From Patescibacteria group bacterium UBA6201 (GTDB lineage Bacteria > Patescibacteriota > Minisyncoccia > Phycocordibacterales > UBA918): a stretch of 64,000 nucleotides of DNA. Positions within the stretch are counted from its first letter, which is position 1. The number at the start of each line of letters is the position of its first letter. The position numbers were made by a program, and so were the translations under genes. Shown one piece after another: positions 18,384 to 61,449 of this stretch. The notes below the pieces were generated by a model. That model saw only the letters and a program-made list of their open reading frames with translations. It had not been told where the DNA came from and searched no databases. The stretch is from contig DISV01000005.1 of NCBI GenBank assembly GCA_002422025.1, positions 51,617 to 115,616 on the forward strand, read 5' to 3'.

Positions 18384-18493
18384 AGTAGTTGTAGTAATCA
18401 GATTTGGGGTTAGTGTTTAATAGTGCTAATTATGGGACAATTATAAAAGATGCGAATCAGTCAAGACCGTATCAGCTAACTTATTGTAAATAT

Positions 18494-18823
18494 ATGAAAC
18501 TCATTCTCCACGTACTCATCGTCGCTTTGGCCCTACTGGTATCTGCTTACATTATTCCAGGTATCGAAGTAGCTAGTGTCTATATAGCCATAATTGCGGC
18601 TTTGATACTTGGTCTACTCAACTTAGTCATAAGACCGATTCTGTTTATTCTAACCCTACCGTTGACCATCATAACCTTCGGACTTTTTGCCTTCGTCTTA
18701 AATGCGCTCATCTTTTGGTTCGCCGCTTCTTTCATCGAGGGCTTTACGGTCACTGGTTTTATACCCGCACTTTTAGGTTCTATCGTGGTATCAATTGCTA
18801 GTGCACTAGCAAGCAAGGAATAG
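18494..18823 (+). CDS. Phage_holin_4_2 / DUF360 family 4-TM membrane protein
   Basis: Track ORF 18404..18823. The conserved family pattern starts at internal MKLILHV (18494): ...PGIEV...NLVIRPILFILTLPLTIITFGLFAFVLNALIFW...GF.V.GF. Confidence 0.75.
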   Translation: MKLILHVLIVALALLVSAYIIPGIEVASVYIAIIAALILGLLNLVIRPILFILTLPLTIITFGLFAFVLNALIFWFAASFIEGFTVTGFIPALLGSIVVSIASALASKE

Positions 18824-22418: not shown

Positions 22419-22466
22419 GTTTAGTTATACACAGGTATTTGAGGTGTTATAGAGCGAACTAGGTCC

Positions 22467-23228
22467 TTGATGTTATATAATTCGGTTATGGAGGAAATCT
22501 CGGTTAACGGAGAAAATTACGTAAAAGCTAGTATCTTAGCCAAGAATTTTGGCTACACTCCGGATTATATCGGACAACTTTGTCGTGCTGGGCAAGTGAA
22601 GTGCACACTTGTTGGACGTAGTTGGTATGTGAATGAAGAGTCGCTTCGAGAACATCGCAAAGGACGTTATCGAAGTAGTTCTGCTAAATCCAAAGAATAC
22701 TTACGTAAGGCAGTAGAAGATCAGTTATTAGTACCGGTTCAGATGCGAACTACTTCAACGGTAAGATATGAACCAGATGAGAAGGAACTTTTTCCGGCAC
22801 TGAATAAAACAGAAGAAACTCATCCTATTGCTTCTGAAGATGATAGTTTAGACTTAAAGGTGGCTATAAATAAGCCTCTATTGGTTGAATCGCTGTCAGA
22901 TAGGCCTGGTGTACCTGTAGCGAGGAAGACTTTAACTAGACATCCTGCACCCGTTTTGCGTACGATTCCTGCTTTACGCCCGATTATAAGCCCCGTACAA
23001 CCCAACTTAACTGCGAAGTCACAAAAAAGTGGCTTCATTCCGAGTCGGGTATCTACAACGGGTACCTTTGCAATATTTTTAGGAATTTTACTAGTTGAGT
23101 CGGTGTTGCTTTTTGGAGTTCTGGGATTAGAGAAGCGCCTCGTTTTGGCCGACAGTAATCAGGCAATGGTTTTGTATGGTTTTGATGCTGATAAGGCACT
23201 TGACTCGATAAAATTCTTCCAAAAATAG
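22467..23228 (+). CDS. Membrane-anchored protein with N-terminal excisionase-type HTH (HTH_17-like) and C-terminal TM helix; hypothetical
   Basis: 253 aa. aa 18-62 (YVKASILAKNFGYTPDYIGQLCRAGQVKCTLVGRSWYVNEESL) fit the HTH_17 pattern. The middle is Pro-rich and the only TM is near the C-terminus (TFAIFLGILLVESVLLFGVLGL). Confidence 0.5.
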   Translation: MMLYNSVMEEISVNGENYVKASILAKNFGYTPDYIGQLCRAGQVKCTLVGRSWYVNEESLREHRKGRYRSSSAKSKEYLRKAVEDQLLVPVQMRTTSTVRYEPDEKELFPALNKTEETHPIASEDDSLDLKVAINKPLLVESLSDRPGVPVARKTLTRHPAPVLRTIPALRPIISPVQPNLTAKSQKSGFIPSRVSTTGTFAIFLGILLVESVLLFGVLGLEKRLVLADSNQAMVLYGFDADKALDSIKFFQK

Positions 23229-23299
23229 CACATCTGCATCTATTTTTGAAAGAATTCAAATATGGAAAATTATCAAAAAATAAACTTAGAAGTCTTCAA

Positions 23300-23330
23300 A
23301 AGATATCCCCATTTTGGGGATATTTTTTAA
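23300..23330 (+). terminator. Rho-independent terminator between the 253-aa gene and the giant gene
   Basis: gatatcccc-atttt-ggggatat followed by TTTTT. Confidence 0.65.
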
Positions 23331-23363
23331 CCAATTTAGTCTGATATTACTATAAAATTACTA

Positions 23364-26300
23364 GTGATGTCAGATAGTACAGAGCCTTCAAACGTAGACA
23401 CTTCAAAGTCGACAAAATTCCTTTCCGTCAAAGAGGCGGCCACTGTCTCTTCTTATACTACTGCTCACGTAACAAGGCTCGCTCAAAAGGGATTAATCAC
23501 AGCTGTGCGTGATGGTCGACAATGGCTGATTGATCCAATTTCTCTCCAAAAATTTGTCTGGGATACAGAAGAAAAAAAGAAAGTAAGAAAGGAACAATTA
23601 CGAAAGGAAAGAGTGGAGGAATTGCATTTATCTAGTACTGGACAAACTCTGGAGGATTCCGATGAGGAGTTTTCAATATTTGATGTTAGAACCGCCGTTG
23701 TTTCCGCCGTCTTCACCACTTGTGTAGCATTGTTGTTTTCTCTGGGGAGTGTTTATGATCAAAATGAACAAATCTTTGCTGGTAGTACGGTGGTGTCAGG
23801 AGTAGAGAGGTTATCCTATGATTTTAAGGATAGAGTGCTTCCTCGAACTCGCGACCTTTCAGCCACCACTCTCTTATCTGCTCCGATTGCAACATATTCA
23901 GGAAAAGTATTGGAATCGTTGTGGTGCGATTTGAAATTACTCTGGTACAAAAATGATAGCTGTGGTGCTCCAGCAATCGAGTACGCTATTCTGCCAATCA
24001 TAAATAACCGTGATGCTGACCCCGAGACTAATGTCACAGTTAACAATACTTACATCACTAATCCTGTAGAGAGAGAAGTCGTAGAGCGAGAAATTGTCCG
24101 TGAAGTTTTTGTCCAAGATGGTCAACTTTCTTTTGCTTCATACATAACTCGTACTGAGTACGACAATCAGGTTGATGCCATAATGCGCTCTATCGAAAAT
24201 ATCGACACGAGCGGAGGTGGTGGAGGTACTAGTAATGTTGCCTCTTTAGAGGATCTTTCTGATGTTGCAGCAATGACTGAAAGTACTGGTGATTTGTTAA
24301 TTTGGACCGGTTCGACCTGGAGTAATATTGCCACCTCTTCTTTGGGGATTTCCGGAGGTAGTGGCGCAGTCGATTCGGTCAATGGTCAGACTGGTGTAGT
24401 GGTACTCGATACTGGGGATGTTTCGGAAAATGGCAATCTATACTTCACCAACGCTCGCGCTCGCGAATCCCTTTCATCATCTGCCACCGGTCTTTCGTAC
24501 GCAACTTCAACCGGTGTTTTTAGCTTAACAGCCGGATACACCATTCCACTCACTGCCTCAACGACTGAATGGAGTAATACTACTAACCTCGTCACTGCCG
24601 GCAGCGCTTCTTGGGACGCTGCTGCAGCTAGTACCACCGCTCTTACTCCTAGCTACCTCCGTGGTCTCTTTTCTAACTCTGCCACCGGCCTCACCTATGA
24701 CTCTGGCACTGGCGCGACTTCACTCACATCTGGCTACACTATCCCACTTTTAGCTTCAACTACTGAGTGGGTTACTGCGTATGGGTGGGGGGATCACTCA
24801 CTGCAAAACTACATCCAGCAAAACGACAACGTAGTATTTGGTAATGCCACTACCACTAGCCTGGTGGTTAGTAACAACATCACAACTTCCTTAAACGATG
24901 GTTGTGTGGAAGTTGCTGGTGGCATACTTACCTCTACCGGTTCTAACTGTGGGATTGGTAGTGGGGGAATCACTAGCCTAAATGGCCTCACTACATCTTC
25001 TCAGTCGTTTGCCACTTCCACCTCAGGAGGTCTTGATCTCAGTATCACTTCTAGTAGTGGTGTACACACTTTCACTGCAGGTCTTTCAGCCGGCTACACC
25101 ATCCCACTTTCAGCTTCCACCACCGAGTGGGCCAACACTCGCAATATCGTCAACGCCTCTTCAACCCTCTGGGACACTGCATACAGCTGGGGAGATCACA
25201 GTACCGCCGGCTACCTAACAACCATCGCTTCTTCCACCATTCGCAACATGTTCTCTAACACTGCCACTGGTCTCACTTATGACTCTGGTACTGGCATCAC
25301 TTCATTGACAGCCGGCTATACTATCCCACTTACTGCCTCAACAACTGAGTGGTCAACCACATACGGATGGGGAGATCACAGTATCGCTGGCTACTTAACC
25401 GAAGTCGCCACTACCACCGTACGTAGCATGTTCTCAACTGGTACTGGTCTTTCATATTCAACTACCACTGGAGAGTTTATCAACACCGGTGTCCTTTCGC
25501 TCGGTGGACTAACCGGTGCTGTGGCTACCTCATCTCTCCATGTCTCCACCTCTACATATGCCTTTACGTCCGGTACCTCATCAATCGCTCTTTCACTCGA
25601 TGGATTTAATTCAACAGACTATCTAACGCTATCCGCTTGGTATGCCACCACCACCGACGCTCTTGATGAAGGTCTAAACAATCTATATTTCACCAACGCT
25701 CGCGCTCGTGAATCACTTTCATCATCTGCCACCGGTCTTTCATACGCAACTTCAACCGGTGCTTTTAGCTTAACGGCCGGCTATACCATTCCACTCACTG
25801 CCTCTACGACTGAATGGAGTAACACTGCTAACCTCGTCACTGCTGGCAGTGCCTCTTGGGACGCTGCTGCAGCTAGTACCACTGCTCTCACTCCAGCATA
25901 TCTGCGTGGTCTCTTTTCAAACTCTGCAACCGGTCTTACTTATGACTCTGGTACTGGCGCGACTTCACTTACAGCTGGCTACACTATCCCACTCACAGCT
26001 TCAACGACTGAGTGGGCTACTGCGTATGGGTGGGGGGATCACAGTGCGGTGGGATATCTCGTCTCTGGTGATATCGACACTTCCTCCGAACTACTCACAA
26101 TTGTTTCAGACGAAACCGGCACTGGCTCATTAGTGTTCAACGCTTCGCCAACTTTCACTGGCAACACCACTTTGGCAAATGCCTCTACCACCAACCTCAC
26201 CGTTTCAGGTAACAGCTATCTCGGTACGGTTGCCTCCGGTACCTGGAACGGTACCGACATCGACATCTCTGACTACACCAATCTCTCAGTCACTGCCACT

Positions 26301-29300
26301 GGCCTCTCCCTGTCCGGTGATGCTGTAGCACTCACTGCCGGCTATATTATCCCACTTTCAGCTTCAACAACTGAGTGGTCAACCGCGTATGGGTGGGGAG
26401 ATCACAGTATCGCTGGTTACTTAACCAACATTACTGGTGAATCACTCGAAGACCTGACTGATGTTGCCACAATGACCAAGTCTACTGGTGATCTTCTTTC
26501 ATGGAATGGTTCAAGTTGGACGAATGTGGCTACGTCATCTCTTGGCTTCAATGACCACGACAGTGTCACTCTTGCTGGTGAAAATTATCTATCACTAGCA
26601 ACTCAACAAATCACGGCCAACGCCATCAACCCAGATAACCTAGCATCCGCCGACTTCGGTGACTTCACCTGCAACGGTACTACTTGTTCGTTTGATACTG
26701 ACTCTGTCAGTGACAACGAGATTGATTACACAACAGTCACTCTCAATGACCTAACTTTCGATGTAGGCAACGTTTCGAAGACCGAGTTTGGTTACCTAGA
26801 TGGAGTCACTTCTGCTATACAAACGCAACTTGATTCAAAACTTTCAACTACCACTGCTGCCTCAACTTACTTAACAATCAACAATAATTTATCTGACCTT
26901 GCCTCCACCACTGTGGCCCGCACTAATCTCGGACTTGGTACCGTTGCTCTACTTAACAGTATTGATATCTCTGATAATACCAATCTCTCTGTATCAGCGA
27001 CCGGCCTCTCCCTGTCCGGTGATGCTGTGGCACTCACTGCCGGCTACACCATCCCACTTTCAGCCTCAACCACTGAGTGGTCAACTGCATACGGATGGGG
27101 AGACCACAGTATCGCTGGCTATCTAACCAATATTACTGGTGAATCCTTCTACGACTTAGTTGACACTCAAAGTTCATACACTGCCAACCGTGTTTTATAT
27201 CAAGGCGGAGGAGGTGTGACTGACTCAGCCAACCTCACCTTCGACGGTTCACTCTTCAGTGTGATTGGTACCGCTTCATCTACAAATCTTTTTACTACCA
27301 ATGCCACTACCACCAATATCACTGCTTCAGGTCACGCTACTCTTGCTACAGCATCATCTACTAACTTCACTGTCTCAGGTAACTCATATATAGGTACGGT
27401 TCTTGGTGGTGCATGGCAGGGAAGCGCAATCGGTGTGCAGTATGGCGGTACCGGAGCAAGTACATTCACTGCCGGAGAAATTCTTGTAGGCAACGGTACT
27501 GGAGCCATCACTTCAACCTCAACCGCCAACCTCAAGGCCACTCTTGGACTTAACAATGTAGAAAACACTGCACTCTCTACTTGGGCTGGTTCATCTAACA
27601 TTACTACCCTTGGTACTATCGTTTCTGGTGTTTGGAATGGAACTACTATAGATGTAGCTCATGGCGGCACCGGAGCTACTACTCTCACCGGTCTCCTTTT
27701 AGGTAATGGCACTGGTGCATTCACTGCTACCACCACATTATCTTCTTCTTATATAGAAGATGCTTATGTTCTCAATACTGGCGACTCTATCTCTGGTAAC
27801 CTAACTTTCTCTGGATTAGCCGCTAATATTGTTCTAGGTTCTAACTGGCTTTCAGGCGATGGAGGAGACGAGGGGCTGTTTGTTGATAGTGTCGGTAAAG
27901 TCGGTATCGGGACGGCTTCTCCCACCGCAGCATTATCAATTACTAATGATGGAACATCTGATCTTGATGTCTTGCTTGATAACGGCACAGTTCAAGGAGT
28001 ATTTGAGTTACAATCAAACAGTGTTGCAAGGTTGGGTACCATAACGAATCATTCATTCGAATTCGTAACCAATAACTCTACTCGTTTTAAGGTAACTAAT
28101 GCCGGGAATATTGGTATAGGCTCCACCTCTCCATCATCTAAACTCACTGTTCAAGGTGACACCTGGATTGGTGGAAACATTACTGCCACTGGCACTTTAA
28201 ATATCACTGATCACTCTACTCTAACTACTGCCTCCACCACCAACCTCACTGTCTCAGGTAACAGCTATCTCGGTACAGTTGCCTCCGGTACCTGGAATGG
28301 TACCGACATCGACATTAGCGACTACACCAACCTCTCTGTATCAGCGACCGGCCTTGAACTTTCGGGTGATGCTATTGCACTCACAGCTGGCTACACTATC
28401 CCACTCACTGCTTCAACTACTGCCTGGAACACAGCCTATAGTTGGGGTGACCACAGCATAGCTGGATATCTAACCAATATTACTGGTGAATCACTTGAAG
28501 ACCTGACCGACGTAGCAGCAATGACTAAGTCTACCGGTGACCTTCTTTCATGGAATGGTTCAAGTTGGACGAATGTAGCGACTTCAAGCTTAGGGATTAC
28601 TGGCACTTCCGACGGCGTCGCTTCTTCAAGTGTGGCGTTTTCGGTCCACAAGAATGGGACGAACCAGACAGTGACAGCAAATACATTTACCTTGCTCACT
28701 TGGTCCACCGAAGTCTTCGACACCAACAACAACTTCGACCTCACCACTGAACGCTTCACGCCAACGGTGGCGGGGAAGTATATTGCGACCGTTGCGTCGT
28801 TTTGTAATGACAGTACAACAAATTGCCAAGTAGCAATATATAAAAATGGTGTCTTGTACTCAAAAAATGTGAATGTTGATCCGAATAATACAGGATCTAT
28901 GGTAACTACTATTGTAGACATGAACGGTACCACTGATTATCTAGAAGCCTATGGATATGATGGTGGAGGAACTACTATCTCCGGCGCTGCAGAGGTCACC
29001 TACTTCTCCGGCGCCCTCATTGCTCCAGCTAACGGCCTCGCCGGCGGTTGGTCTAACGACGGCACGCAGTCATACCTCGCCGACTACACCGACCTCGTAG
29101 CTATCGGTACTTCTACTGCCGCCGCAAAGCTCGATGTGTGGGGAAGTGCTGGTTCAACTGACATACTCGGAATTTCTTCAAGTACTGGTTCACGACTCCT
29201 CACTGTGACAAGTAACGGTAATGTGGGGATTGGAACCACCACTCCTTCGTCGAAACTCTCCGTCTACGGTGACGTTCTGCTCGAAGGCTCAAGCCGTTAT

Positions 29301-32300
29301 CTAAACTTCGGTAGTACTGCAGGTACATCAGGCTACGGTATTCGCGACAACGCCGGAACCATAGAGTTTAAAAACTCTGGTGGCTCTTGGACCGGTATTG
29401 GCACGGGCACTGGCAGTACTGGTTCTAGTAGTGTGGCGTTTTCGGTACATAAGAATAGCACTGCGCAGACGGTGACTTCAGCTACTGTCACGCTTCTTAC
29501 TTGGTCTACCGAACTCTTCGACACCAACAACAACTTCGACCTCACCACTGAACGCTTCACGCCAACGGTGGCAGGGAAATATACAGTTACACTTTCAGCT
29601 TTTTGTGATAATGGTACAACAGGTTGTGCGGTCTACATCTATAAAAATAACGTACTTGTAAACCAAGGCTATACTGGGTCAAACGTTGCTACCGGTGTTG
29701 CAGCTGTTACGGCCATTATAGATATGAACGGTACGACGGATTATCTAGAAGCTTATGTATTTAATAATAATGGTACTACCATTAATGGTGGTAAACATGT
29801 CACCTACTTCTCCGGCGCCCTCATTGCTCCAGCTAACGGCCTCGCCGGCGGTTGGTCTAACGACGGCACGCAGTCATACCTCGCTGACTACACCGACCTC
29901 GTTGCTATCGGTACCACTACCGCAGCCGCTAAGCTTGATGTCTGGGGAAGTGCTGGTTCAACTGACATCCTTGGTATTTCATCCTCAACAGGTTCACGTT
30001 TGTTGACACTCACTAGTGGAGGCAACCTCGGTCTCGGCACTACTACTCCGTCATCTAAACTCTCCATCCAAGGAACTGGTAATCTCCTCTCACTCTTCGA
30101 CACTGCCGGCAACTCTATCTTCAATATTGCTTCTGCCACTACATCTACCTCTACTCTAGCTACCAACCTCGCAATCACCGGCAACCTCTCACTTTCTGGT
30201 TCACTCTACGATAGTACTAGCTCTGCTGGTTCTTCAGGTATGGTGTTACAAAGTACTGGTAGTGGAACTCAATGGGTAGCCACTTCATCACTTGGTATTA
30301 CTGGTGGTACTGATGGTGTCGCTTCTTCAAGTGTGGCGTTTAGTGTGCATAAGAATGGAACAAATCAGACTGTGACAAGCAATGTAGAAACTTTGGTGAC
30401 TTGGTCCACAGAAGATTTTGACACAAATAACAACTTCGACCTCTCAACAGAACGTTTTACTCCTACTATTGCAGGTAAATATATAGTCACAGTCGCTGTA
30501 CGGTGCGATTCGGCGACCACCTTTTGTCAGGCACGTCTGAGAAAGAACGGAAGTGGTATATCAACTCGATATGAATATACAGCCGGAGGTGGCACTCCAC
30601 CTACTACAGTTACAGCTACTGTGGATATGAATGGTACGACGGATTACTTGGATGTTATGGCGACAAATAGTGGGGGAACCACAATAAACGGTGGTGCGGA
30701 ATACACATACTTCTCCGGCGCCCTCATCGCTCCAGCTAACGGCCTCGCCGGCGGTTGGTCAAATGACGGTACTCAGTCATACCTCGCCGACTATACCGAC
30801 CTCGTTGCCATCGGTACCACTACCGCTACTGCTAAACTCGACATCTGGGGAAGTGCTGGTTCAACTGACATTCTTGGTATCTCATCCAGTACTGGTTCAC
30901 GACTTCTCACAGTGACGAGTAACGGTAATTTGGGAATTGGAACCTCTTCACCAACATACAAACTTGATGTAGCTGGAGGATATATAAACGTAGATGGTAA
31001 CAGTGGTGGATATAAAATAAGTGGTAACACCATTCTTCAAGCTTCGAGTACTAACTTCAGTACCTTGGTTGGTAATGGAGCTGGTACAGTACTGCAAGCC
31101 ACCGGTCTATACAACACCGCTGTTGGTTATCAGTCATTAAATGTAGCGACTTCTTCTACTTACAACACCGCTGTCGGTTATCAATCGCTCTTCTCTGATA
31201 CTTCTGGTGGTAGCAACACAGCTACTGGTTACAAGGCTTTGTACTCAAACACCACTGGTGGTTTTAACACCGCACTGGGACGAGAATCTCTCTATTCCAA
31301 CACCACTGGTGTCGCCAACACTGCTTATGGTTACAAATCTCTCTATTCCAACACCACTGGTAGTTACAACGTGGCTAGTGCGTATCAAGCTCTACAGTCC
31401 AACACCACTGGTAGTTACAACATGGCCTTGGGACGTCAGGCTCTCTACTCCAACACCTCTGGACAAGGTAATACCGCGGTAGGGTTTAGAACTGGTTACG
31501 GTGACGGGTCTACATTAAATCAACAATCAGTAGTGGATGAGTACATAACATTGATTGGTTATCAGGCTTCTCGTGATGCTTCAGTGGCTTCGACCACCTC
31601 TCTCACTAACAGCGTTGCGATTGGTTACAACGCTAGATTCTTAGCTAGCAACCAAGTAGTGCTCGGTAATGATTCGGTTACTTCCACTTTGTTGAAAGGT
31701 AATGTCAGTATCGGTACCACCACCAACGCTGTAGCTGGTGGCACAGCAGCCTTCTTAAACATTGATCGTTCAAGTGCGGGGGCGTTCGCCGTGGGTACAT
31801 ATATAAATCTCACTACAAGTGCTTCTCATTTTGGTTTTGCTAACCCTAACGGTTTGGTTGGTACTATTAACACTTCTGCTTCCGCCACCACCTACAACAC
31901 CACTTCCGACCGTCGTACCAAGGAAAATATTACCGAAACCGTACTCGGACTCGATGCCTTAATGCAGCTACCAATACGTGACTTCTCATTCATTAAAGAT
32001 ACTACCCACGCTACAACCTCCGGCTTCATCGCGCAGGAGTTATATGAAATATTCCCTTGGGCAGTCTCAACCAACGGTGACAATGGTATTGACCCACTTA
32101 CCGGCACCAGTACTCCTTGGTCAGTGGACTATGGTCGAGTGACTCCACTCATTGCTCGGGCAGTACAGGAATTGAATTTGAAACTAGAAGATTTGGCCAC
32201 CACTAGCTTGTATGCCGATTTGGAAGCTGATTCATTTACTAAGAGTTTCTTCGATAAACTCATCGCTTGGTTTGCTGACGCTACCAATGGTATTGAGAAC

Positions 32301-32726
32301 TTCTTTGCGAATCGGGTAAGCACTAAGGAGTTATGTGTTGGGGACGGCAGTGGGGCGGAGACCTGTATCACTAAGAGTCAACTAGATTCGCTATTACAAA
32401 GTGCGGCGGTAGGTAGTTCAAACAGTGGGGGAGAAGGAGGTGGTTCTTCCACTCCAGAACCCCTTCCTCCAGTAGACACCACTACTCCTGAACCAACCAC
32501 TAACGATACTGCTGCAACTACGACTACAGACGTAACTACCGACACTACCACAACTACAGACGGAACCACAGACACACCATCACCCGACAATGGAACGATA
32601 ACCGACACTGAACCAGTTCCAGAACCTACGCCTGAACCAGCTCCCGATCCAGAACCAGAGTCAGCTCCGGAACCGGCGCCAGAACCTACTCCAGAACCTA
32701 CTCCAACCCCAGCTCCAACGGAATAA
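23364..32726 (+). CDS. Giant (3120 aa) membrane-anchored repetitive surface fibre: N-terminal cytoplasmic HTH_17-like domain, one TM helix, repetitive ectodomain, tail-fibre-like module with C-terminal S74 intramolecular chaperone domain, Pro/Thr/Glu-rich tail
   Basis: It is a single uninterrupted 9363-nt ORF. The frame-1 GTG is at 23364 and the ATG at 23367. The HTH is LSVKEAATVSSYTTAHVTRLAQKGLITAVRDGRQWLIDPISL. The TM is AVVSAVFTTCVALLFSLGSVY (~aa 109-129). Repeats and the C-terminal module are listed separately. Confidence 0.85.
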   Translation: MMSDSTEPSNVDTSKSTKFLSVKEAATVSSYTTAHVTRLAQKGLITAVRDGRQWLIDPISLQKFVWDTEEKKKVRKEQLRKERVEELHLSSTGQTLEDSDEEFSIFDVRTAVVSAVFTTCVALLFSLGSVYDQNEQIFAGSTVVSGVERLSYDFKDRVLPRTRDLSATTLLSAPIATYSGKVLESLWCDLKLLWYKNDSCGAPAIEYAILPIINNRDADPETNVTVNNTYITNPVEREVVEREIVREVFVQDGQLSFASYITRTEYDNQVDAIMRSIENIDTSGGGGGTSNVASLEDLSDVAAMTESTGDLLIWTGSTWSNIATSSLGISGGSGAVDSVNGQTGVVVLDTGDVSENGNLYFTNARARESLSSSATGLSYATSTGVFSLTAGYTIPLTASTTEWSNTTNLVTAGSASWDAAAASTTALTPSYLRGLFSNSATGLTYDSGTGATSLTSGYTIPLLASTTEWVTAYGWGDHSLQNYIQQNDNVVFGNATTTSLVVSNNITTSLNDGCVEVAGGILTSTGSNCGIGSGGITSLNGLTTSSQSFATSTSGGLDLSITSSSGVHTFTAGLSAGYTIPLSASTTEWANTRNIVNASSTLWDTAYSWGDHSTAGYLTTIASSTIRNMFSNTATGLTYDSGTGITSLTAGYTIPLTASTTEWSTTYGWGDHSIAGYLTEVATTTVRSMFSTGTGLSYSTTTGEFINTGVLSLGGLTGAVATSSLHVSTSTYAFTSGTSSIALSLDGFNSTDYLTLSAWYATTTDALDEGLNNLYFTNARARESLSSSATGLSYATSTGAFSLTAGYTIPLTASTTEWSNTANLVTAGSASWDAAAASTTALTPAYLRGLFSNSATGLTYDSGTGATSLTAGYTIPLTASTTEWATAYGWGDHSAVGYLVSGDIDTSSELLTIVSDETGTGSLVFNASPTFTGNTTLANASTTNLTVSGNSYLGTVASGTWNGTDIDISDYTNLSVTATGLSLSGDAVALTAGYIIPLSASTTEWSTAYGWGDHSIAGYLTNITGESLEDLTDVATMTKSTGDLLSWNGSSWTNVATSSLGFNDHDSVTLAGENYLSLATQQITANAINPDNLASADFGDFTCNGTTCSFDTDSVSDNEIDYTTVTLNDLTFDVGNVSKTEFGYLDGVTSAIQTQLDSKLSTTTAASTYLTINNNLSDLASTTVARTNLGLGTVALLNSIDISDNTNLSVSATGLSLSGDAVALTAGYTIPLSASTTEWSTAYGWGDHSIAGYLTNITGESFYDLVDTQSSYTANRVLYQGGGGVTDSANLTFDGSLFSVIGTASSTNLFTTNATTTNITASGHATLATASSTNFTVSGNSYIGTVLGGAWQGSAIGVQYGGTGASTFTAGEILVGNGTGAITSTSTANLKATLGLNNVENTALSTWAGSSNITTLGTIVSGVWNGTTIDVAHGGTGATTLTGLLLGNGTGAFTATTTLSSSYIEDAYVLNTGDSISGNLTFSGLAANIVLGSNWLSGDGGDEGLFVDSVGKVGIGTASPTAALSITNDGTSDLDVLLDNGTVQGVFELQSNSVARLGTITNHSFEFVTNNSTRFKVTNAGNIGIGSTSPSSKLTVQGDTWIGGNITATGTLNITDHSTLTTASTTNLTVSGNSYLGTVASGTWNGTDIDISDYTNLSVSATGLELSGDAIALTAGYTIPLTASTTAWNTAYSWGDHSIAGYLTNITGESLEDLTDVAAMTKSTGDLLSWNGSSWTNVATSSLGITGTSDGVASSSVAFSVHKNGTNQTVTANTFTLLTWSTEVFDTNNNFDLTTERFTPTVAGKYIATVASFCNDSTTNCQVAIYKNGVLYSKNVNVDPNNTGSMVTTIVDMNGTTDYLEAYGYDGGGTTISGAAEVTYFSGALIAPANGLAGGWSNDGTQSYLADYTDLVAIGTSTAAAKLDVWGSAGSTDILGISSSTGSRLLTVTSNGNVGIGTTTPSSKLSVYGDVLLEGSSRYLNFGSTAGTSGYGIRDNAGTIEFKNSGGSWTGIGTGTGSTGSSSVAFSVHKNSTAQTVTSATVTLLTWSTELFDTNNNFDLTTERFTPTVAGKYTVTLSAFCDNGTTGCAVYIYKNNVLVNQGYTGSNVATGVAAVTAIIDMNGTTDYLEAYVFNNNGTTINGGKHVTYFSGALIAPANGLAGGWSNDGTQSYLADYTDLVAIGTTTAAAKLDVWGSAGSTDILGISSSTGSRLLTLTSGGNLGLGTTTPSSKLSIQGTGNLLSLFDTAGNSIFNIASATTSTSTLATNLAITGNLSLSGSLYDSTSSAGSSGMVLQSTGSGTQWVATSSLGITGGTDGVASSSVAFSVHKNGTNQTVTSNVETLVTWSTEDFDTNNNFDLSTERFTPTIAGKYIVTVAVRCDSATTFCQARLRKNGSGISTRYEYTAGGGTPPTTVTATVDMNGTTDYLDVMATNSGGTTINGGAEYTYFSGALIAPANGLAGGWSNDGTQSYLADYTDLVAIGTTTATAKLDIWGSAGSTDILGISSSTGSRLLTVTSNGNLGIGTSSPTYKLDVAGGYINVDGNSGGYKISGNTILQASSTNFSTLVGNGAGTVLQATGLYNTAVGYQSLNVATSSTYNTAVGYQSLFSDTSGGSNTATGYKALYSNTTGGFNTALGRESLYSNTTGVANTAYGYKSLYSNTTGSYNVASAYQALQSNTTGSYNMALGRQALYSNTSGQGNTAVGFRTGYGDGSTLNQQSVVDEYITLIGYQASRDASVASTTSLTNSVAIGYNARFLASNQVVLGNDSVTSTLLKGNVSIGTTTNAVAGGTAAFLNIDRSSAGAFAVGTYINLTTSASHFGFANPNGLVGTINTSASATTYNTTSDRRTKENITETVLGLDALMQLPIRDFSFIKDTTHATTSGFIAQELYEIFPWAVSTNGDNGIDPLTGTSTPWSVDYGRVTPLIARAVQELNLKLEDLATTSLYADLEADSFTKSFFDKLIAWFADATNGIENFFANRVSTKELCVGDGSGAETCITKSQLDSLLQSAAVGSSNSGGEGGGSSTPEPLPPVDTTTPEPTTNDTAATTTTDVTTDTTTTTDGTTDTPSPDNGTITDTEPVPEPTPEPAPDPEPESAPEPAPEPTPEPTPTPAPTE
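24436..28600 (+). repeat. Intragenic array of ~10 copies of a 40-65-aa motif (..SATGLTYDSGTGATSLTAGYTIPLTASTTEW.TAYGWGDHS..)
   Basis: The DNA motif ggctacac(c/t)atcccact(c/t) recurs near 24533, 24732, 25093, 25313, 25775, 25975, 26340, 27043 and 28385. It includes a ~370-nt segment duplicated at ~90% nt identity (24436-24800 vs 25680-26045). There are also three copies of a ~100-aa module GTWNGTDIDISDYTNLSV.ATGL.LSGDA.ALTAGY.IPL.ASTT.W.TAY.WGDHSIAGYLTNITGES (26230, 26960, 28280). Confidence 0.85.
28585..30965 (+). repeat. Three tandem ~810-900-nt (~270-300 aa) intragenic repeat units
   Basis: Each unit starts SLGITG.SDGVASSSVAFSVHKNGTNQTVT (28585, ~29395, 30291). Each contains ..FDTNNNFDLTTERFTPTVAGKY..DMNGTTDYLEAY..YFSGALIAPANGLAGGWSNDGTQSYLADYTDLVAIGT and ends ..SNGN(V/L)GIGTTTPSSKLSV. 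Several 100-nt blocks are almost identical at the nt level (e.g. 29010-29110, 29815-29915, 30720-30820). Confidence 0.85.
31110..31480 (+). repeat. Tandem 48-51-nt repeats encoding ~8 copies of a 16-17-aa N-T-A-x-G-Y-x-(S/A)-L-Y-S-N-T-T-G motif (tail-fibre / YadA-head-like beta-solenoid repeat)
   Basis: YNTAVGYQSLNVATSST / YNTAVGYQSLFSDTSGGS / NTATGYKALYSNTTGGF / NTALGRESLYSNTTGVA / NTAYGYKSLYSNTTGSY / NVASAYQALQSNTTGSY / NMALGRQALYSNTSGQG. Confidence 0.8.
31900..32200 (+). other. Peptidase S74 / C-terminal intramolecular chaperone (auto-cleaving) domain of phage tail-fibre / tail-spike type
   Basis: TSDRRTKENITETVLGLDALMQLPIRDFSFIKD....SGFIAQELYEIFPWAVS....VDYGRVTPLIARAVQELNLKLEDL. This matches the SD(R/K)xxKxNI...LxxLxxLxV..Y.yk......hiGfIAQEv..v.P consensus of endosialidase / T5 L-shaped-fibre chaperone domains. 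Confidence 0.7.
32430..32723 (+). repeat. Low-complexity Pro/Thr/Glu/Ala-rich C-terminal tail (TPEP/PEPT repeats)
   Basis: ...TPEPLPPVDTTTPEPTTNDTAATTTTDVTTDTTTTTDGTTDT...EPVPEPTPEPAPDPEPESAPEPAPEPTPEPTPTPAPTE*. Confidence 0.8.
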
Positions 32727-32748
32727 TCGTTAGTGTATAATTGCTTTT

Positions 32749-41865: not shown

Positions 41866-42180
41866 ACTCGTCAACAGAACCACAGTGAAGCATCACGTCG
41901 GCCATTCGGGCCGGCGTTTTATTGTCGCTTCTCTAACATATCTGCATCCTTGGCTTCCAGATTAATTAATGTATCTACAAAAAGTTGTCCCACTTCATTA
42001 TTTAGGATACTTGATAAGGACACCCCTACTTCCACACCCTCATGAAGACAGGAGTAGGGAAGTCAGACACTTTTTCATTCTGAGATTTCCATTTTAAATT
42101 TTCATGGCTCCCCTACCGCTCAGCAGGGGAGAGGGCTGGCTACCCCACATCTGTTTAAAAATTTTTACAAACTGATTAAG

Positions 42181-42224
42181 AACATGCGCATAATTTTTTC
42201 AGAAGAAAAAATTATGCGCATGTT
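42181..42224. other. 44-bp perfect palindrome (20-bp arms) resembling the XerC-binding half of dif; candidate recombination site or strong stem-loop
   Basis: aacATGCGCATAATtttttc-agaa-gaaaaaATTATGCGCATgtt. The arm core TGCGCATAAT is identical to the XerC arm of E. coli dif (GGTGCGCATAAT). It lies 214 nt upstream of a Xer-family recombinase gene. Confidence 0.35.
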
Positions 42225-42437
42225 GGAGTAGGGGACATAAATTAAACAAAACTGAACAATCAAATCCAAATTAAGCACCTGTGGATAACTTTGCTGGCTG
42301 TGGTGTAATATTGCTAGTATTATTCTCTTTACGTACATTGTACGAATAATACAGTATTGATATTCCTACATATATTACTCACTTCCGGGCTCTGTGCCCT
42401 ACACTAACCTACTCTTATTTAAGTTAAAATTTAATGT

Positions 42438-49238: not shown

Positions 49239-49979
49239 TCAGGTACTTAGGTCCTTGGTTGTCAGTATAGATTTTTTCAGACGTTTTTTATTTGGACGCA
49301 AGTTACATGTCTTAGACAATTTGTCGATAATGTATTCTTCAGCTTCGTCTACAGAGTCTACGATATGGAAGATATCGAGATCAATCTCGTCAATAGTCTC
49401 ATATTTATTTACCAATTCCTTCTCCATCCATGAGACGAGGGGTTTCCAAAATGCTTGGCCGTATAAGAGTACTGGTACAGCAGTGATTTTTTTTGTTTGA
49501 ATCAGAGTGATGATTTCAAATAATTCGTCCAGCGTTCCAAAGCCTCCAGGGAAATAGACATAGACCTCAGAAGCGTACGCCAGCATAACCTTGCGAGAGA
49601 AGAAGTGGTCAAAGGAGAGAGACTCAGTGGTATACGGGTTGAGGCGCTGCTCCATCGGTAGGCGAATATTGAGACCAACTGAAGTACCTCCAGCCTTAAA
49701 GGCTCCGACGTTGCTGGCCTCCATGATCCCTCCGCCACCACCCGTTACGATGGTGAGGCCGAGTTCGGATAGGCGGGATGCTAACCCCTCGGCCTCATTG
49801 TAGTACTTGTCCCCTGGATGGGTGCGGGCACTTCCCCAGAAGGTAGCGGAAGGCCCAAGCTTTTTAAGCAAATTAAAGCCATTAACAAACTCAGACATTA
49901 TGCTGAATATGCGCCAGCTCTGGTCCTCCGGACGAAGTAGTTCACTAGTCAATCGACAAGTGAGTGGTTCTTCTGACAT
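49239..49979 (-). CDS. LOG family protein (TIGR00730 Rossmann-fold nucleotide-binding; cytokinin riboside 5'-monophosphate phosphoribohydrolase-like)
   Basis: Track ORF 49239..50039. The likely start is MSEEPL. Motifs TGGGGGIMEASN and PGGFGTLDELFEIITLIQTKK. Confidence 0.8.
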   Translation of the reverse strand: MSEEPLTCRLTSELLRPEDQSWRIFSIMSEFVNGFNLLKKLGPSATFWGSARTHPGDKYYNEAEGLASRLSELGLTIVTGGGGGIMEASNVGAFKAGGTSVGLNIRLPMEQRLNPYTTESLSFDHFFSRKVMLAYASEVYVYFPGGFGTLDELFEIITLIQTKKITAVPVLLYGQAFWKPLVSWMEKELVNKYETIDEIDLDIFHIVDSVDEAEEYIIDKLSKTCNLRPNKKRLKKSILTTKDLST

Positions 49980-50157
49980 TTTGGTCTTTTTTTTATCTCT
50001 TCCGTTACCAGACAAGTTTAAAATCAGATCATTGAACATTACTATCAGTATAAGGTGTCAGTTGCTAGTTGTCAGTCACCAGTTGTTAGTAGCTGGTTCG
50101 TTCGCGTTTGATTAATTCGAGGTAAATGCTTCTGTGCCATCGCCTCTAAATATGTAA

Positions 50158-61382: not shown

Positions 61383-61449
61383 AAGGGGTATTTTAACACG
61401 TTCAATTCCCGCTTCTCCCCCGTAGGTTTGGTGTTATAATCAACACATT

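What the first reader, a model, noticed from the sequence alone, without database searches (positions are those of the whole stretch)
22467..23600. The small upstream protein and the giant fibre share a paralogous HTH + single-TM N-terminal module
Aa 18-62 of the 253-aa protein (YVKASILAKNFGYTPDYIGQLCRAGQVKCTLVGRSWYVNEESL) align with aa 19-63 of the giant protein (FLSVKEAATVSSYTTAHVTRLAQKGLITAVRDGRQWLIDPISL). The shared pattern is K.(A/S)......Y(T)...(I/V)..L...G.......GR.W.....SL, and both carry a Gly-Arg-x-Trp 'wing'. Both are membrane-anchored with the HTH predicted to be cytoplasmic. The small protein is essentially 'HTH + Pro-rich linker + C-terminal TM' with almost no ectodomain. The two genes are adjacent but separated by an intrinsic terminator (23300-23330). 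The small protein could be a regulator or anti-regulator partner of the giant one, or a decoy. The pair looks like a small membrane-tethered transcription-factor family.
Basis: seen in the sequence. Interest (0 to 1): 0.7.

Follow-up and report, generated by a model that had tools for sequence, protein, structure and literature searches.

The report
Membrane-tethered HTH pair with giant fibre
Two neighbouring genes of an ultrasmall (Patescibacteria) bacterium carry related DNA-binding-type domains anchored in the membrane; this pair sits next to, or is fused to, a giant phage-tail-fibre-like surface protein across the whole lineage and may link the cell surface to gene control.

Summary
The small protein and the giant protein begin with homologous winged-helix domains. 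The pairwise score is marginal (BLASTP E=0.004), but the family profile comparison is decisive (99.7%, E=1.6e-25). Both are divergent HTH_17/excisionase-type domains; their models best match Pukovnik Xis and BldC. Each is followed by one transmembrane helix. Only the HTH is homologous: the helices sit at different positions.

The pair is not local. In 76 of 80 related genomes the order is obg, gatB, A (small), B (second HTH-TM protein). B is usually about 250 aa and is followed directly by a separate secreted giant protein. In this window's clade B is fused to the fibre. Other relatives carry HTH-HTH-TM-giant fusions.

Two cis elements were found:
- A dyad (23341-23373) flanks the giant gene's -10 box and covers its start codon. 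Its sequence tracks B's HTH class.
- A TTATNCACA-like box lies 51 nt upstream of both -10 boxes.

My best reading is membrane-tethered autoregulators coupled to a surface fibre. DNA binding is inferred, not shown. This is a new variant of transmembrane transcription regulators and has not been characterised.

The parts
22425..22433 (+). Upstream box TTATACACA of the small gene (A). It starts 51 nt before the -10 hexamer.
   Evidence: The same motif class sits at -60..-80 from the ATG in 17/80 A promoters and 43/76 B promoters, against 0.03 expected per 110 nt.
22476..22481 (+). -10 hexamer TATAAT of gene A, 6 nt before ATG 22488 with no Shine-Dalgarno sequence (leaderless-type promoter).
   Evidence: A TATAAT/TATACT box lies 5-14 nt before the ATG in nearly all 80 loci.
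22488..23228 (+). Gene A: 246-aa bitopic protein (the ORF opens at TTG 22467). Its parts are a winged HTH, a disordered linker with a conserved Y..D...L.P motif, a TM helix and a 33-aa outer tail.
   Evidence: 107 homologues of 240-390 aa were found, none with a Pfam domain on record. Invariant residues are Y18 A25 Y30 D33 Y34 G36 Q37 L38 C39 R40 G50 R51 W53 V55 Y101 P110.
22494..22667 (+). Winged-helix (HTH_17/excisionase-type) domain of A, aa 10-67 in 253-aa numbering.
   Evidence: AlphaFold pLDDT is above 90 with beta-beta-alpha-alpha-beta-beta-alpha order. The top Foldseek hit is Pukovnik Xis 4j2n (probability 1.00, rmsd 1.6 A), then BldC. Pfam HTH_17 scores E=0.036 here and matches 13/20 family members.
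23055..23126 (+). Transmembrane helix of A (aa 197-220).
   Evidence: Hydropathy and the AlphaFold helix. A TM helix is present in 78 of 80 family members.
23298..23328 (+). Intrinsic-terminator hairpin after A. Its 5' arm contains the conserved box ATATCCCCA (23303-23311), which starts 51 nt before the giant gene's -10 hexamer.
   Evidence: (I3: 14-nt arms, 93% complementary). The TATCC[C/A]CA box is conserved in all 7 close relatives; the hairpin is present only in WIN and L001.
23341..23373 (.). Dyad element. Half-sites are CTGATATTACTA (23341-23352, + strand) and CTGACATCACTA (23362-23373, - strand). They flank the -10 hexamer TAAAAT (23354-23359), and the right half covers ATG 23367. It is a candidate operator; the alternative is an RNA hairpin.
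   Evidence: (the only zero-mismatch pair in 64 kb).
23367..32726 (+). Giant gene (the ORF opens at GTG 23364; 3120 aa). It is a B-type HTH-helix-TM head fused to a tail-fibre-like ectodomain.
23421..23531 (+). Winged-helix (HTH_17) domain of the giant protein, aa 20-56.
   Evidence: Pfam HTH_17 E=9.4e-5 and TIGR01764 E=3.8e-5, both below the curated cut-offs. AlphaFold pLDDT 96-98. Foldseek top hits are Pukovnik Xis (rmsd 1.4 A) and BldC, then MerR-family proteins.
23535..23645 (+). Long basic helix aa 58-94 between the HTH and the TM; a likely oligomerisation helix.
   Evidence: AlphaFold pLDDT above 95. The EK..R.E.LR.ER..E pattern is conserved in the B family.
23685..23747 (+). Transmembrane helix of the giant protein (aa 108-128).
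   Evidence: The median TM start in the B family is aa 106.
30336..30728 (+). C1q-like head domain, the best of at least two copies.
   Evidence: Pfam C1q E=7.7e-9, 36.3 bits against a cut-off of 23.7.
31905..32066 (+). Peptidase_S74 intramolecular-chaperone domain with the SDRRTKENI motif. It marks a trimeric, self-cleaving fibre C-terminus.
   Evidence: Pfam 40.7 bits against a cut-off of 22. The motif was located. PHROG tail-fibre families match at up to E=5.5e-21.

Best explanation
What the genes are:
- The two genes are the local copies of a lineage-wide pair of bitopic membrane proteins, here called A and B. Each starts with a cytoplasmic excisionase/MerR-type winged helix (divergent HTH_17).
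- In most relatives the cassette is obg, gatB, A, B, C. B is about 250 aa (HTH, long basic helix, TM, small ectodomain). C is a separately secreted giant fibre whose gene starts 4-10 nt after B's stop.
- In the window's clade B's HTH-helix-TM head is fused in frame to the fibre. B's own ectodomain and the fibre's signal peptide and N-domain have been lost.
- The product is therefore a tail-fibre-like, probably trimeric, surface fibre. It has C1q-like heads and an S74 self-cleaving C-terminal chaperone. It is anchored by an N-terminal TM helix and carries an HTH in the cytoplasm.

How it most likely works (inferred):
- The B-type HTH oligomerises through the long helix, possibly together with A's HTH.
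- It binds the dyad that flanks the -10 hexamer and covers the transcription and translation start of its own gene. This would repress the fibre gene from the membrane.
- Binding probably acts in cis. The HTH is the first part made, and co-translational membrane insertion keeps the gene nearby.
- A has its own leaderless-type promoter and a nearly invariant HTH, so it is a conserved partner. Either it pairs with B, or it reads the conserved TTATNCACA-like box placed at the same distance (51 nt) upstream of both -10 hexamers.
- The state of the fibre outside the cell could modulate this control.

Shown here: homology, fold, topology bias, synteny, fusions, the dyad and the box.
Inferred: DNA binding, autoregulation, A-B partnership and signalling.

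The confidence of 0.5 is for the whole mechanism. The descriptive part (a paralogous membrane-anchored HTH_17 pair in a conserved cassette with the fibre) I hold at about 0.9.
For: Homology and fold:
- Profile-profile E=1.6e-25.
- HTH_17 is matched by 32/35 B members and 13/20 A members.
- Both models hit Xis and BldC first, with rmsd 1.4-1.6 A.
- A long helix follows B's HTH, as in MerR-type dimers.

Synteny:
- 540 genomic loci encode an A relative. In the 80 fetched, obg-gatB-A-second HTH gene occurs in 76, and three of the four exceptions end at a contig edge.
- In 11 of 14 loci inspected, a 1494 to >2860-aa ORF starts right after B.

Fusions:
- B is continuous with fibre sequence in the window and in L001, L006, L008, L017, L045, L054 and L071.
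- The window fibre shares modules with unfused C proteins (36-63% identity). It lacks their signal peptide and INYQGKL N-domain, and it lacks B's FSDxV ectodomain.
- Of 143 newly returned representatives among the 150 best, 13 are 600 aa or longer (up to 7214 aa). Nine of these have two tandem HTHs before the TM.

Cis elements:
- The dyad half-sites are unique in the window.
- Dyad symmetry of at least 13/18 positions occurs in 24/77 loci against 11/770 shuffles.
- Half-site classes follow B's recognition-helix classes.
- Operator distance correlates with B-HTH distance (r=0.53). The correlation stays at 0.43 after controlling for gatB or for A-HTH distance.
- Among close relatives, only the box and the dyad are conserved in the A-B spacer.
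- The box-to-(-10) distance is fixed at 39-41 nt in 34/43 B promoters and at about 50 nt in the window clade and in A promoters. The difference is one helical turn.
Against: - No DNA-binding data exist.
- Both window HTHs score below the Pfam and NCBIfam curated cut-offs.
- The arms (13-19 nt) are long for an operator half-site. As sense-strand RNA the region folds better than the antisense strand (mean difference 1.3 kcal/mol, 49 loci against 27, p=0.0014; window -16.2 against -6.8 kcal/mol). That pattern favours an RNA hairpin. In the window, one of the two G-T mismatches is needed to create the ATG itself.
- The operator/HTH correlation could reflect physical linkage of adjacent sequence or transfer of the whole cassette.
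- Only about a third of loci show a strong ungapped dyad.
- A 1:1 fusion of a repressor to a structural protein is unusual.
- MerR-like folds can also bind proteins (CbpM and DafA appear among the fold hits).
- Box-like motifs also precede a few other genes.
Confidence: 0.5

Rival explanations
1. Structural anchor only. The HTH-TM heads are membrane anchors or assembly platforms for the giant fibre. In this reading the winged helices bind a cytoplasmic protein (or each other) rather than DNA, as the RodZ HTH binds MreB or as CbpM/DafA bind chaperones.
For: - B is recurrently fused 1:1 to the fibre.
- When fused, B's ectodomain and C's N-domain are lost together, as expected if those two parts normally dock.
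- CbpM and DafA are among the fold matches.
- The neighbourhood is cell-envelope and division genes: ScpB, an S11 carboxypeptidase, an MraY-like transferase and FtsW.
Against: - It does not explain the dyad on B's own promoter, or why the dyad tracks B's HTH class.
- It does not explain the phased box.
- The closest folds, Xis and BldC, are DNA binders.
- Anchoring and regulation are not mutually exclusive.
Confidence: 0.2
2. The dyad acts as an RNA hairpin, not an operator. In transcripts reading through from A it sequesters the start codon of B or the giant gene. It would then control translation or processing, and the HTH proteins would have other targets or none.
For: - Sense-strand folds are more stable than antisense folds (49 loci against 27, p=0.0014).
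- The window hairpin is -16.2 kcal/mol, z=-4.35, with both mismatches forming G-U pairs.
- The arms covary between clades.
- The genome lacks Shine-Dalgarno sites, so start-site structure would matter.
Against: - The TATAAT-like hexamer at the dyad centre is held at a fixed distance from the upstream box (34/43 loci). That marks it as a real -10 element, so transcripts from it lack the left arm.
- In the window a terminator lies between A and the dyad.
- Half-site positions G-A..T..CT.TA are conserved across clades.
- One of the two window G-T mismatches is needed for the ATG.
Confidence: 0.2
3. Chromosome-to-membrane tether. The HTHs bind chromosomal sites and hold DNA at the membrane, as RacA or Noc do, for segregation or division rather than gene regulation.
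For: - RacA-DNA is among the fold hits (probability 0.72).
- scpB and ftsW lie just downstream.
- A's HTH is almost invariant across the lineage.
Against: - The half-site pair occurs only once in 64 kb.
- Coupling to a giant surface fibre is not expected for a segregation factor.
- scpB is not detectably conserved next to the cassette in the other loci.
Confidence: 0.07
4. Chance resemblance, or hydrophobic signal-anchor segments mistaken for an HTH.
For: The pairwise BLASTP score is only E=0.004, and both Pfam scores are below the gathering threshold.
Against: - Profile-profile E=1.6e-25.
- Reciprocal HMM hits in 70/72 and 80/81 members.
- Both models show confident winged-helix folds with the same top PDB match.
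- The segments are hydrophilic and lie upstream of the separate TM helices.
Confidence: 0.01

Closest known systems
Transmembrane transcription regulators (ToxR/TcpP, CadC; surveyed in PMC10269533)
   Same: A cytoplasmic N-terminal DNA-binding-type domain, one TM helix and an outer domain in a single polypeptide. Two such proteins are encoded side by side, as ToxR and TcpP act together. Single-pass architecture is the commonest type in that survey.
   Different: The DNA-binding domain here is HTH_17/excisionase-type, not OmpR/PhoB-type. The outer part is either tiny (A) or a giant tail-fibre-like protein. No regulation has been shown. The text search of that paper found no mention of HTH_17, PF12728 or Patescibacteria.
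Excisionase/BldC-type small DNA-binding proteins (Pukovnik Xis 4j2n, BldC 6ama, RdfS 8dgl; Pfam HTH_17, TIGR01764)
   Same: Same winged-helix fold (rmsd 1.4-1.6 A over about 45 residues) and the same best Pfam and NCBIfam family.
   Different: Those are small soluble proteins. From my own knowledge, they bind direct repeats or AT-rich DNA cooperatively. Here the domain is the head of a membrane protein, and the candidate site is an inverted repeat.
MerR-family regulators (SoxR, CueR, MtaN, BmrR)
   Same: A winged HTH followed directly by a long helix; they appear among the fold matches.
   Different: No effector domain (a TM helix takes its place) and no Pfam MerR hit. The dyad is centred on the -10 hexamer rather than within a 19-20-bp spacer between -35 and -10.
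MYRF (eukaryotic membrane-bound transcription factor with a phage-derived S74/ICA domain)
   Same: One polypeptide combines a DNA-binding-type domain, a TM helix and a Peptidase_S74 intramolecular-chaperone domain that implies trimerisation.
   Different: In MYRF the S74 domain lies between the DNA-binding domain and the TM, so cleavage frees the factor (my own knowledge). Here the TM (aa 108-128) separates the HTH from an S74 domain about 2700 residues away on the outside. Cleavage would trim the fibre tip and would not release the HTH.
Phage tail fibres and endosialidase-type fibres with a C-terminal intramolecular chaperone
   Same: The giant's C-terminus matches Peptidase_S74 and PHROG tail-fibre families.
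   Different: It is chromosomal, in a conserved housekeeping context across the lineage, and it is membrane-anchored by an HTH-TM head.
RodZ (HTH + TM bitopic morphogenesis protein)
   Same: A cytoplasmic HTH, a linker, one TM helix and a small outer domain; the HTH is used at the membrane.
   Different: From my own knowledge, the RodZ HTH is XRE-type and binds MreB. No such Pfam hits occur here.

Membership tests
Pfam HTH_17 (PF12728) / TIGR01764 excisionase-family DNA-binding domain | Sequence score at or above the curated cut-off | tested here: inconclusive
   The window proteins are below the cut-offs: A 14.8 bits and giant 23.0 bits against 27; TIGR01764 24.0 against 28.8. It is still the best family for both. 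It is matched by 32/35 B members (best E=1.2e-9) and 13/20 A members, and about a third of B homologues carry a precomputed PF12728 hit.
Pfam HTH_17 (PF12728) / TIGR01764 excisionase-family DNA-binding domain | Winged-helix fold: strand, two helices, beta-hairpin wing | tested here: met
   AlphaFold pLDDT above 90 for both domains. The top Foldseek match for both is Pukovnik Xis 4j2n_C (probability 1.00, TM-score to target 0.68, rmsd 1.4-1.6 A), then BldC and RdfS.
Pfam HTH_17 (PF12728) / TIGR01764 excisionase-family DNA-binding domain | Binds DNA | not testable with these tools
   Only indirect evidence: a dyad on the gene's own promoter that tracks the HTH class.
Transmembrane transcription regulators (one-component, membrane-bound) | A DNA-binding-type domain and at least one TM helix in the same protein, with the domain cytoplasmic | tested here: met
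   HTH plus a single TM helix in both proteins. Positive-inside bias across both families.
Transmembrane transcription regulators (one-component, membrane-bound) | Regulates transcription by binding promoter DNA while in the membrane | not testable with these tools
   A candidate operator at 23341-23373 and a shared box. There is no binding or expression data.
ToxR-like receptor family | OmpR/PhoB-type winged-helix DNA-binding domain | tested here: not met
   No Trans_reg_C hit; the best family is HTH_17.
MerR family | MerR-type HTH profile match and a C-terminal effector-binding domain | tested here: not met
   No Pfam MerR or MerR_1 hit. The long helix is followed by a TM helix, not an effector domain.
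MerR family | Operator dyad inside an over-long spacer between -35 and -10 | tested here: not met
   The dyad is centred on the -10 hexamer. No -10-like hexamer lies at the offset expected if the upstream box were a -35 element.
MYRF-like self-releasing membrane transcription factors | S74/ICA domain on the same side as the DNA-binding domain and N-terminal to the TM, so that cleavage releases it | tested here: not met
   The order is HTH (aa 20-56), TM (aa 108-128), S74 (aa 2848-2901).
Tail-fibre-like proteins with a Peptidase_S74 intramolecular chaperone (the giant's ectodomain) | S74 profile match above the cut-off, with the Ser-Asp-x-Arg-x-Lys site | tested here: met
   40.7 bits against 22. 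SDRRTKENI lies at aa 2847 in ATG numbering. PHROG tail-fibre families match at up to E=5.5e-21. Self-cleavage itself cannot be tested here.
RodZ | XRE-type HTH (HTH_25) and a DUF4115 outer domain | tested here: not met
   No such Pfam hits in either family.

The most novel reading that the evidence does not exclude
A surface fibre with a built-in gene switch. In these host-dependent ultrasmall bacteria, a giant trimeric adhesin fibre is wired through a single TM helix to a cytoplasmic Xis/MerR-like HTH that sits on the promoter of its own gene. A second, invariant membrane-tethered HTH (A) reads a DnaA-box-like element phased one or more helical turns upstream. Together they would form a two-protein, membrane-bound circuit that reports fibre assembly or host contact directly to transcription. 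It would also be a bacterial counterpart, arrived at independently, of linking a phage-fibre domain to a membrane-bound transcription factor.
Probability: 0.25. Interest if true: 0.85.

Novelty: new variant of a known kind. Interest (0 to 1): 0.65.

Why it matters
Patescibacteria have very few recognisable regulators, and how they sense or hold on to hosts is largely unknown.

This work identifies a gene pair conserved across a whole class-level lineage: 540 species-level genomes carry it, always after obg-gatB. The pair is tied by adjacency and by repeated gene fusion to the largest surface protein of the cell. If the HTH heads do bind the dyad and the box, this would be a compact route from the cell surface to transcription in organisms that cannot yet be grown. 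It would also be a new domain type among membrane-bound transcription regulators.

The candidate sites and the HTH classes that go with them give short, concrete sequences. They can be tested in vitro or in a heterologous host without culturing the organism.

Tried and rejected
- **PDB sequence search.** A profile of the A family gave only noise (E>1). Fold comparison was needed.
- **Homologue search with the giant's first 300 aa alone.** It found 2 proteins. An alignment of B genes from the fetched loci was needed to reach the family.
- **RNA genes.** Rfam at gathering thresholds and ARAGORN found nothing in the window.
- **Defence and phage libraries.** There was no meaningful hit for the HTH heads. 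The one PADLOC hit (mad1, E=0.0019) is another small HTH. No PHROG matched.
- **Long A-B spacers.** I asked whether the 300-600-nt spacers seen in 35 loci hide a conserved small ORF or a conserved sequence. They do not.
- **The TTATNCACA-like box as a -35 element.** Rejected. -10-like hexamers do not peak 22-25 nt after the box start; they peak at 39-41 or 49-51 nt.
- **The box as a DnaA-box cluster or origin.** The strict pattern is only mildly over-represented in the window: 6 matches against 2.5 expected, and 6 of 100 shuffles reach 6.
- **Further dyad half-sites in the window (a regulon).** None beyond the pair itself.
- **The same palindrome upstream of A.** None.
- **Tool limits.** The repeat finder did not report the dyad because it has no exact 6-mer seed. 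The terminator scanner missed the hairpin because the stem extends into the T-run.
- **Literature searches.** They found no description of this family. HigX of Caulobacter is a LytTR-type protein and is not related.

Full report
**1. What is at the coordinates**

The window carries two + strand ORFs: 22467..23228 (253 aa) and 23364..32726 (3120 aa). They follow obg and gatB. They precede scpB, an S11 D-Ala-D-Ala carboxypeptidase, an MraY-like transferase and ftsW. Best hits are to MAGs labelled Kaiserbacteria, Nomurabacteria, Paceibacteria or Parcubacteria, so this is a Patescibacteria (CPR) genome. The family-conserved start of the small gene is ATG 22488, since M8 is invariant. The giant most likely starts at ATG 23367, which is the start a public gene call uses.

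**2.

That is marginal on its own.
- I built family alignments from 80 related loci. hhalign of the small-protein family (A) against the second family (B) gave probability 99.7% and E=1.6e-25 over 56 columns.
- The A HMM hits 70/72 B N-termini, and the B HMM hits 80/81 A N-termini. The window's own two proteins score E=1.4e-6 and E=1.8e-19.
- There is no third copy in the window.

**3. What the shared domain is**

- Both proteins have Pfam HTH_17 as their best family: E=0.036 for A and E=9.4e-5 for the giant. The giant also matches TIGR01764 'excisionase family'. All scores are below the curated cut-offs.
- At family level, 32/35 B members and 13/20 A members match HTH_17.
- AlphaFold models give a confident winged helix in both (pLDDT above 90): A aa 10-67 and giant aa 20-56.
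- Foldseek against the PDB puts mycobacteriophage Pukovnik Xis first for both (probability 1.00, rmsd 1.4-1.6 A). BldC and RdfS follow for both. For the giant, the MerR-family proteins SoxR, CueR, MtaN and RacA also appear.
- A sequence-only PDB search found nothing.
- The GR-x-W motif sits in the wing.

**4. Membrane anchoring**

- A has one TM helix at aa 197-220, followed by a 33-aa tail modelled as a hairpin plus a helix.
- The giant has a long, confident helix at aa 58-94 and then a TM helix at aa 108-128.
- Across the families, K+R is enriched before the TM relative to after it: 2.28 against 0.81 for A and 2.93 against 0.61 for B. This fits a cytoplasmic HTH.
- The window giant's own TM flanks are acidic, so its topology rests on the family pattern and on the lack of a signal peptide.
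- Only the HTH is homologous. The TM helices are at non-equivalent positions.

**5. The pair is a conserved cassette, and the giant's head is a fusion**

- A scan of one genome per species found 540 loci encoding an A relative.
- In the 80 loci fetched, obg-gatB-A is followed by a second HTH gene in 76. Three of the four exceptions end at a contig edge.
- In most loci B is 230-290 aa. Its parts are the HTH, a basic helix, a TM at about aa 100-125, and an ectodomain ending in a conserved FSDxVxV motif.
- In 11 of 14 loci inspected, an ORF of 1494 to more than 2860 aa starts 4-10 nt after B's stop. It has a Sec-type signal peptide and a conserved 'INYQGKL' N-domain.
- In the window and in L001, L006, L008, L017, L045, L054 and L071, the B head runs straight into fibre sequence.
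- The window fibre shares many modules with the unfused giants (36-63% identity). It lacks their signal peptide and N-domain, and it lacks B's FSDxV ectodomain. Loss of both parts on fusion is what one expects if they normally dock. This is an inference.
- L002, L003 and L009 keep A and a short B, and also have a third HTH fused to the giant.
- A full phmmer search of 1.84 billion representatives found 708 relatives of the head. Of the 143 newly returned among the 150 best, 13 are 600 aa or longer (up to 7214 aa). Nine of these have two tandem HTHs before the TM. This is a Rosetta-stone argument that two such HTHs work together.

**6. The fibre**

- Pfam finds C1q-like domains and a Peptidase_S74 intramolecular chaperone at aa 2848-2901, both above their cut-offs.
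- The SDRRTKENI site is present.
- The C-terminus matches phage tail-fibre families at up to E=5.5e-21.
- The S74 domain is outside the cell, about 2700 residues from the TM. Self-cleavage cannot release the HTH, so this is not a MYRF-like design.

**7. Upstream regions**

General promoter features:
- The genome almost lacks Shine-Dalgarno sites (3 of 47 genes).
- Many first genes have a -10-like hexamer ending 6-10 nt before the ATG. This is a leaderless-type arrangement.
- Gene A shows it in nearly all loci.

The dyad upstream of B:
- An inverted repeat is centred on a TATAAT-like hexamer.
- In the window the half-sites are CTGATATTACTA (23341-23352) and CTGACATCACTA (23362-23373, - strand). 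They flank TAAAAT (23354-23359) and cover ATG 23367. They are the only zero-mismatch pair in 64 kb.
- At least 13 of 18 symmetric positions match in 24/77 loci, against 11/770 shuffles.
- Half-site classes follow B's recognition-helix classes.
- Half-site distance correlates with B-HTH distance (r=0.53). The partial correlation is 0.43 given gatB or given A-HTH. Correlation with A-HTH is weaker (partial 0.21-0.25).

The shared box:
- Among seven close relatives, only this dyad and a TATCC[C/A]CA box are conserved in the A-B spacer.
- The box belongs to the TTATNCACA class and resembles a DnaA box. It lies at -60..-80 from B's ATG in 43/76 loci, against 0.03 expected, and it is present in 17/80 A promoters.
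- Its distance to the -10 hexamer is fixed at 39-41 nt in 34/43 B promoters and at 49-51 nt in most A promoters.
- In the window both promoters have the box exactly 51 nt before the -10 hexamer (22425 to 22476; 23303 to 23354).
- The two spacing classes differ by one helical turn.
- The box is not a -35 element. Similar motifs precede a few other genes.

The terminator:
It is confined to the window and L001, and it is built around the box.

**8. Operator or RNA hairpin?**

For an RNA hairpin:
- The window dyad folds at -16.2 kcal/mol (z=-4.35), with both mismatches as G-U pairs.
- Across loci the sense strand folds better than the antisense strand: 49 against 27, p=0.0014, though the loci are not independent.

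Against it:
- The central hexamer is phased with the box. It therefore looks like a true -10 element, and its transcripts would lack the left arm.
- One of the window's two G-T mismatches creates the ATG.
- A terminator precedes the dyad in the window.

I weight the operator reading higher, but the question is open. Mapping 5' ends would settle it.

**9. Mechanism**

- Most likely, A and B are membrane-tethered HTH proteins functionally and physically coupled to the giant fibre.
- B, or the fused head, would sit on the dyad of its own promoter and limit fibre-gene expression from the membrane. This would probably act in cis during co-translational insertion.
- A is a conserved partner. It would act either by pairing with B or by reading the box.
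- Steps shown: homology, fold, TM, synteny, fusion, cis elements and their covariation.
- Steps inferred: DNA binding, repression, partnership, and any signal from the fibre.
- Rivals are a purely structural anchor, an RNA-level role for the dyad, and a chromosome tether.

**10. Comparison with known systems, and novelty**

- The design works like a single-pass transmembrane transcription regulator. These are widespread, and single-pass forms are the commonest (PMC10269533).
- It fails the ToxR-family test (not an OmpR-type domain), the MerR tests and the MYRF test.
- Searches of the literature library found no description of this family or cassette.
- NCBI and JGI call the members 'hypothetical', 'helix-turn-helix domain-containing' or 'excisionase family DNA binding protein'.
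- I rate it a new variant of a known kind. It is of real interest to people working on Patescibacteria and on membrane-bound regulators, but no function has been demonstrated.

Noticed in passing
window, genome-wide (e.g. 32733-32741 before scpB, 61435-61440, 49239..50039 start): Only 3 of 47 genes have a Shine-Dalgarno-like motif. Many operon-first genes have a TATAAT/TATACT-like hexamer ending 6-10 nt before the ATG. This suggests mostly leaderless or SD-independent initiation in this genome.
   Followed up: partly
window 22425-22433 and 23303-23311; L001-L080 upstream of the A and B genes: A DnaA-box-like motif (TTATNCACA class) is held at fixed, helically phased distances (about 40 or about 50 nt) upstream of -10 hexamers. 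What binds it is unknown: DnaA, the invariant A HTH, or a general promoter factor.
   Followed up: partly
window ~42170-42290, - strand: A perfect TTATCCACA box is followed about 47 nt later by an ATG that opens only an 8-codon ORF. That ORF runs into a long palindrome (CATGCGCATAATTTTTT...AAAAAATTATGCGCATG). It looks like a small RNA or a terminator-bearing unit in a 0.9-kb gene-free gap. There is no Rfam hit.
   Followed up: no
L002 ~12520, L003 ~9660-, L009 ~12368: These close relatives have three HTH paralogues: A, a short stand-alone B (156-200 aa), a ~175-aa ORF, and then a third HTH fused to the giant. The window's single fusion may therefore have arisen by loss or recombination between tandem heads.
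   Followed up: partly
35 of the fetched loci, between the A and B genes (e.g. L015 10940-11365, L016 11051-11507): The A-B spacers are 300-600 nt long and non-coding, with no conserved ORF or sequence. Some hold repeated palindromic units of a REP/MITE-like kind (GGATCGCTTCG...GCGAAGCAATCCAGA).
   Followed up: partly
proteins P0187 (366 aa) and P0232 (274 aa): These are soluble proteins made of five tandem copies of the same HTH, with no TM helix. The domain therefore also occurs as arrays.
   Followed up: no
L011, L015, L019, L022, L032, L038, L062, L063, L070, L072, L078, downstream of B: The unfused giant proteins share a conserved N-domain after the signal peptide (INYQGKL...LFSVMLGS...VDFNQTLYLGV...PRK.LG.VPAAF) and a C-terminal CVDGVCLTADDLRALL motif before a Pro/Glu/Thr-rich tail. 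Neither was checked against any domain library here.
   Followed up: no
window 22467..23228, aa 95-115 of the small protein: A short conserved motif (Y101..D104...L.P110) lies in the otherwise variable, disordered cytoplasmic linker of the A family. It may be a docking site for a partner.
   Followed up: no
window 18404..18823: A holin-like 4-TM protein (Pfam Phage_holin_4_2, E=6e-31) is encoded two genes upstream of obg.
   Followed up: no
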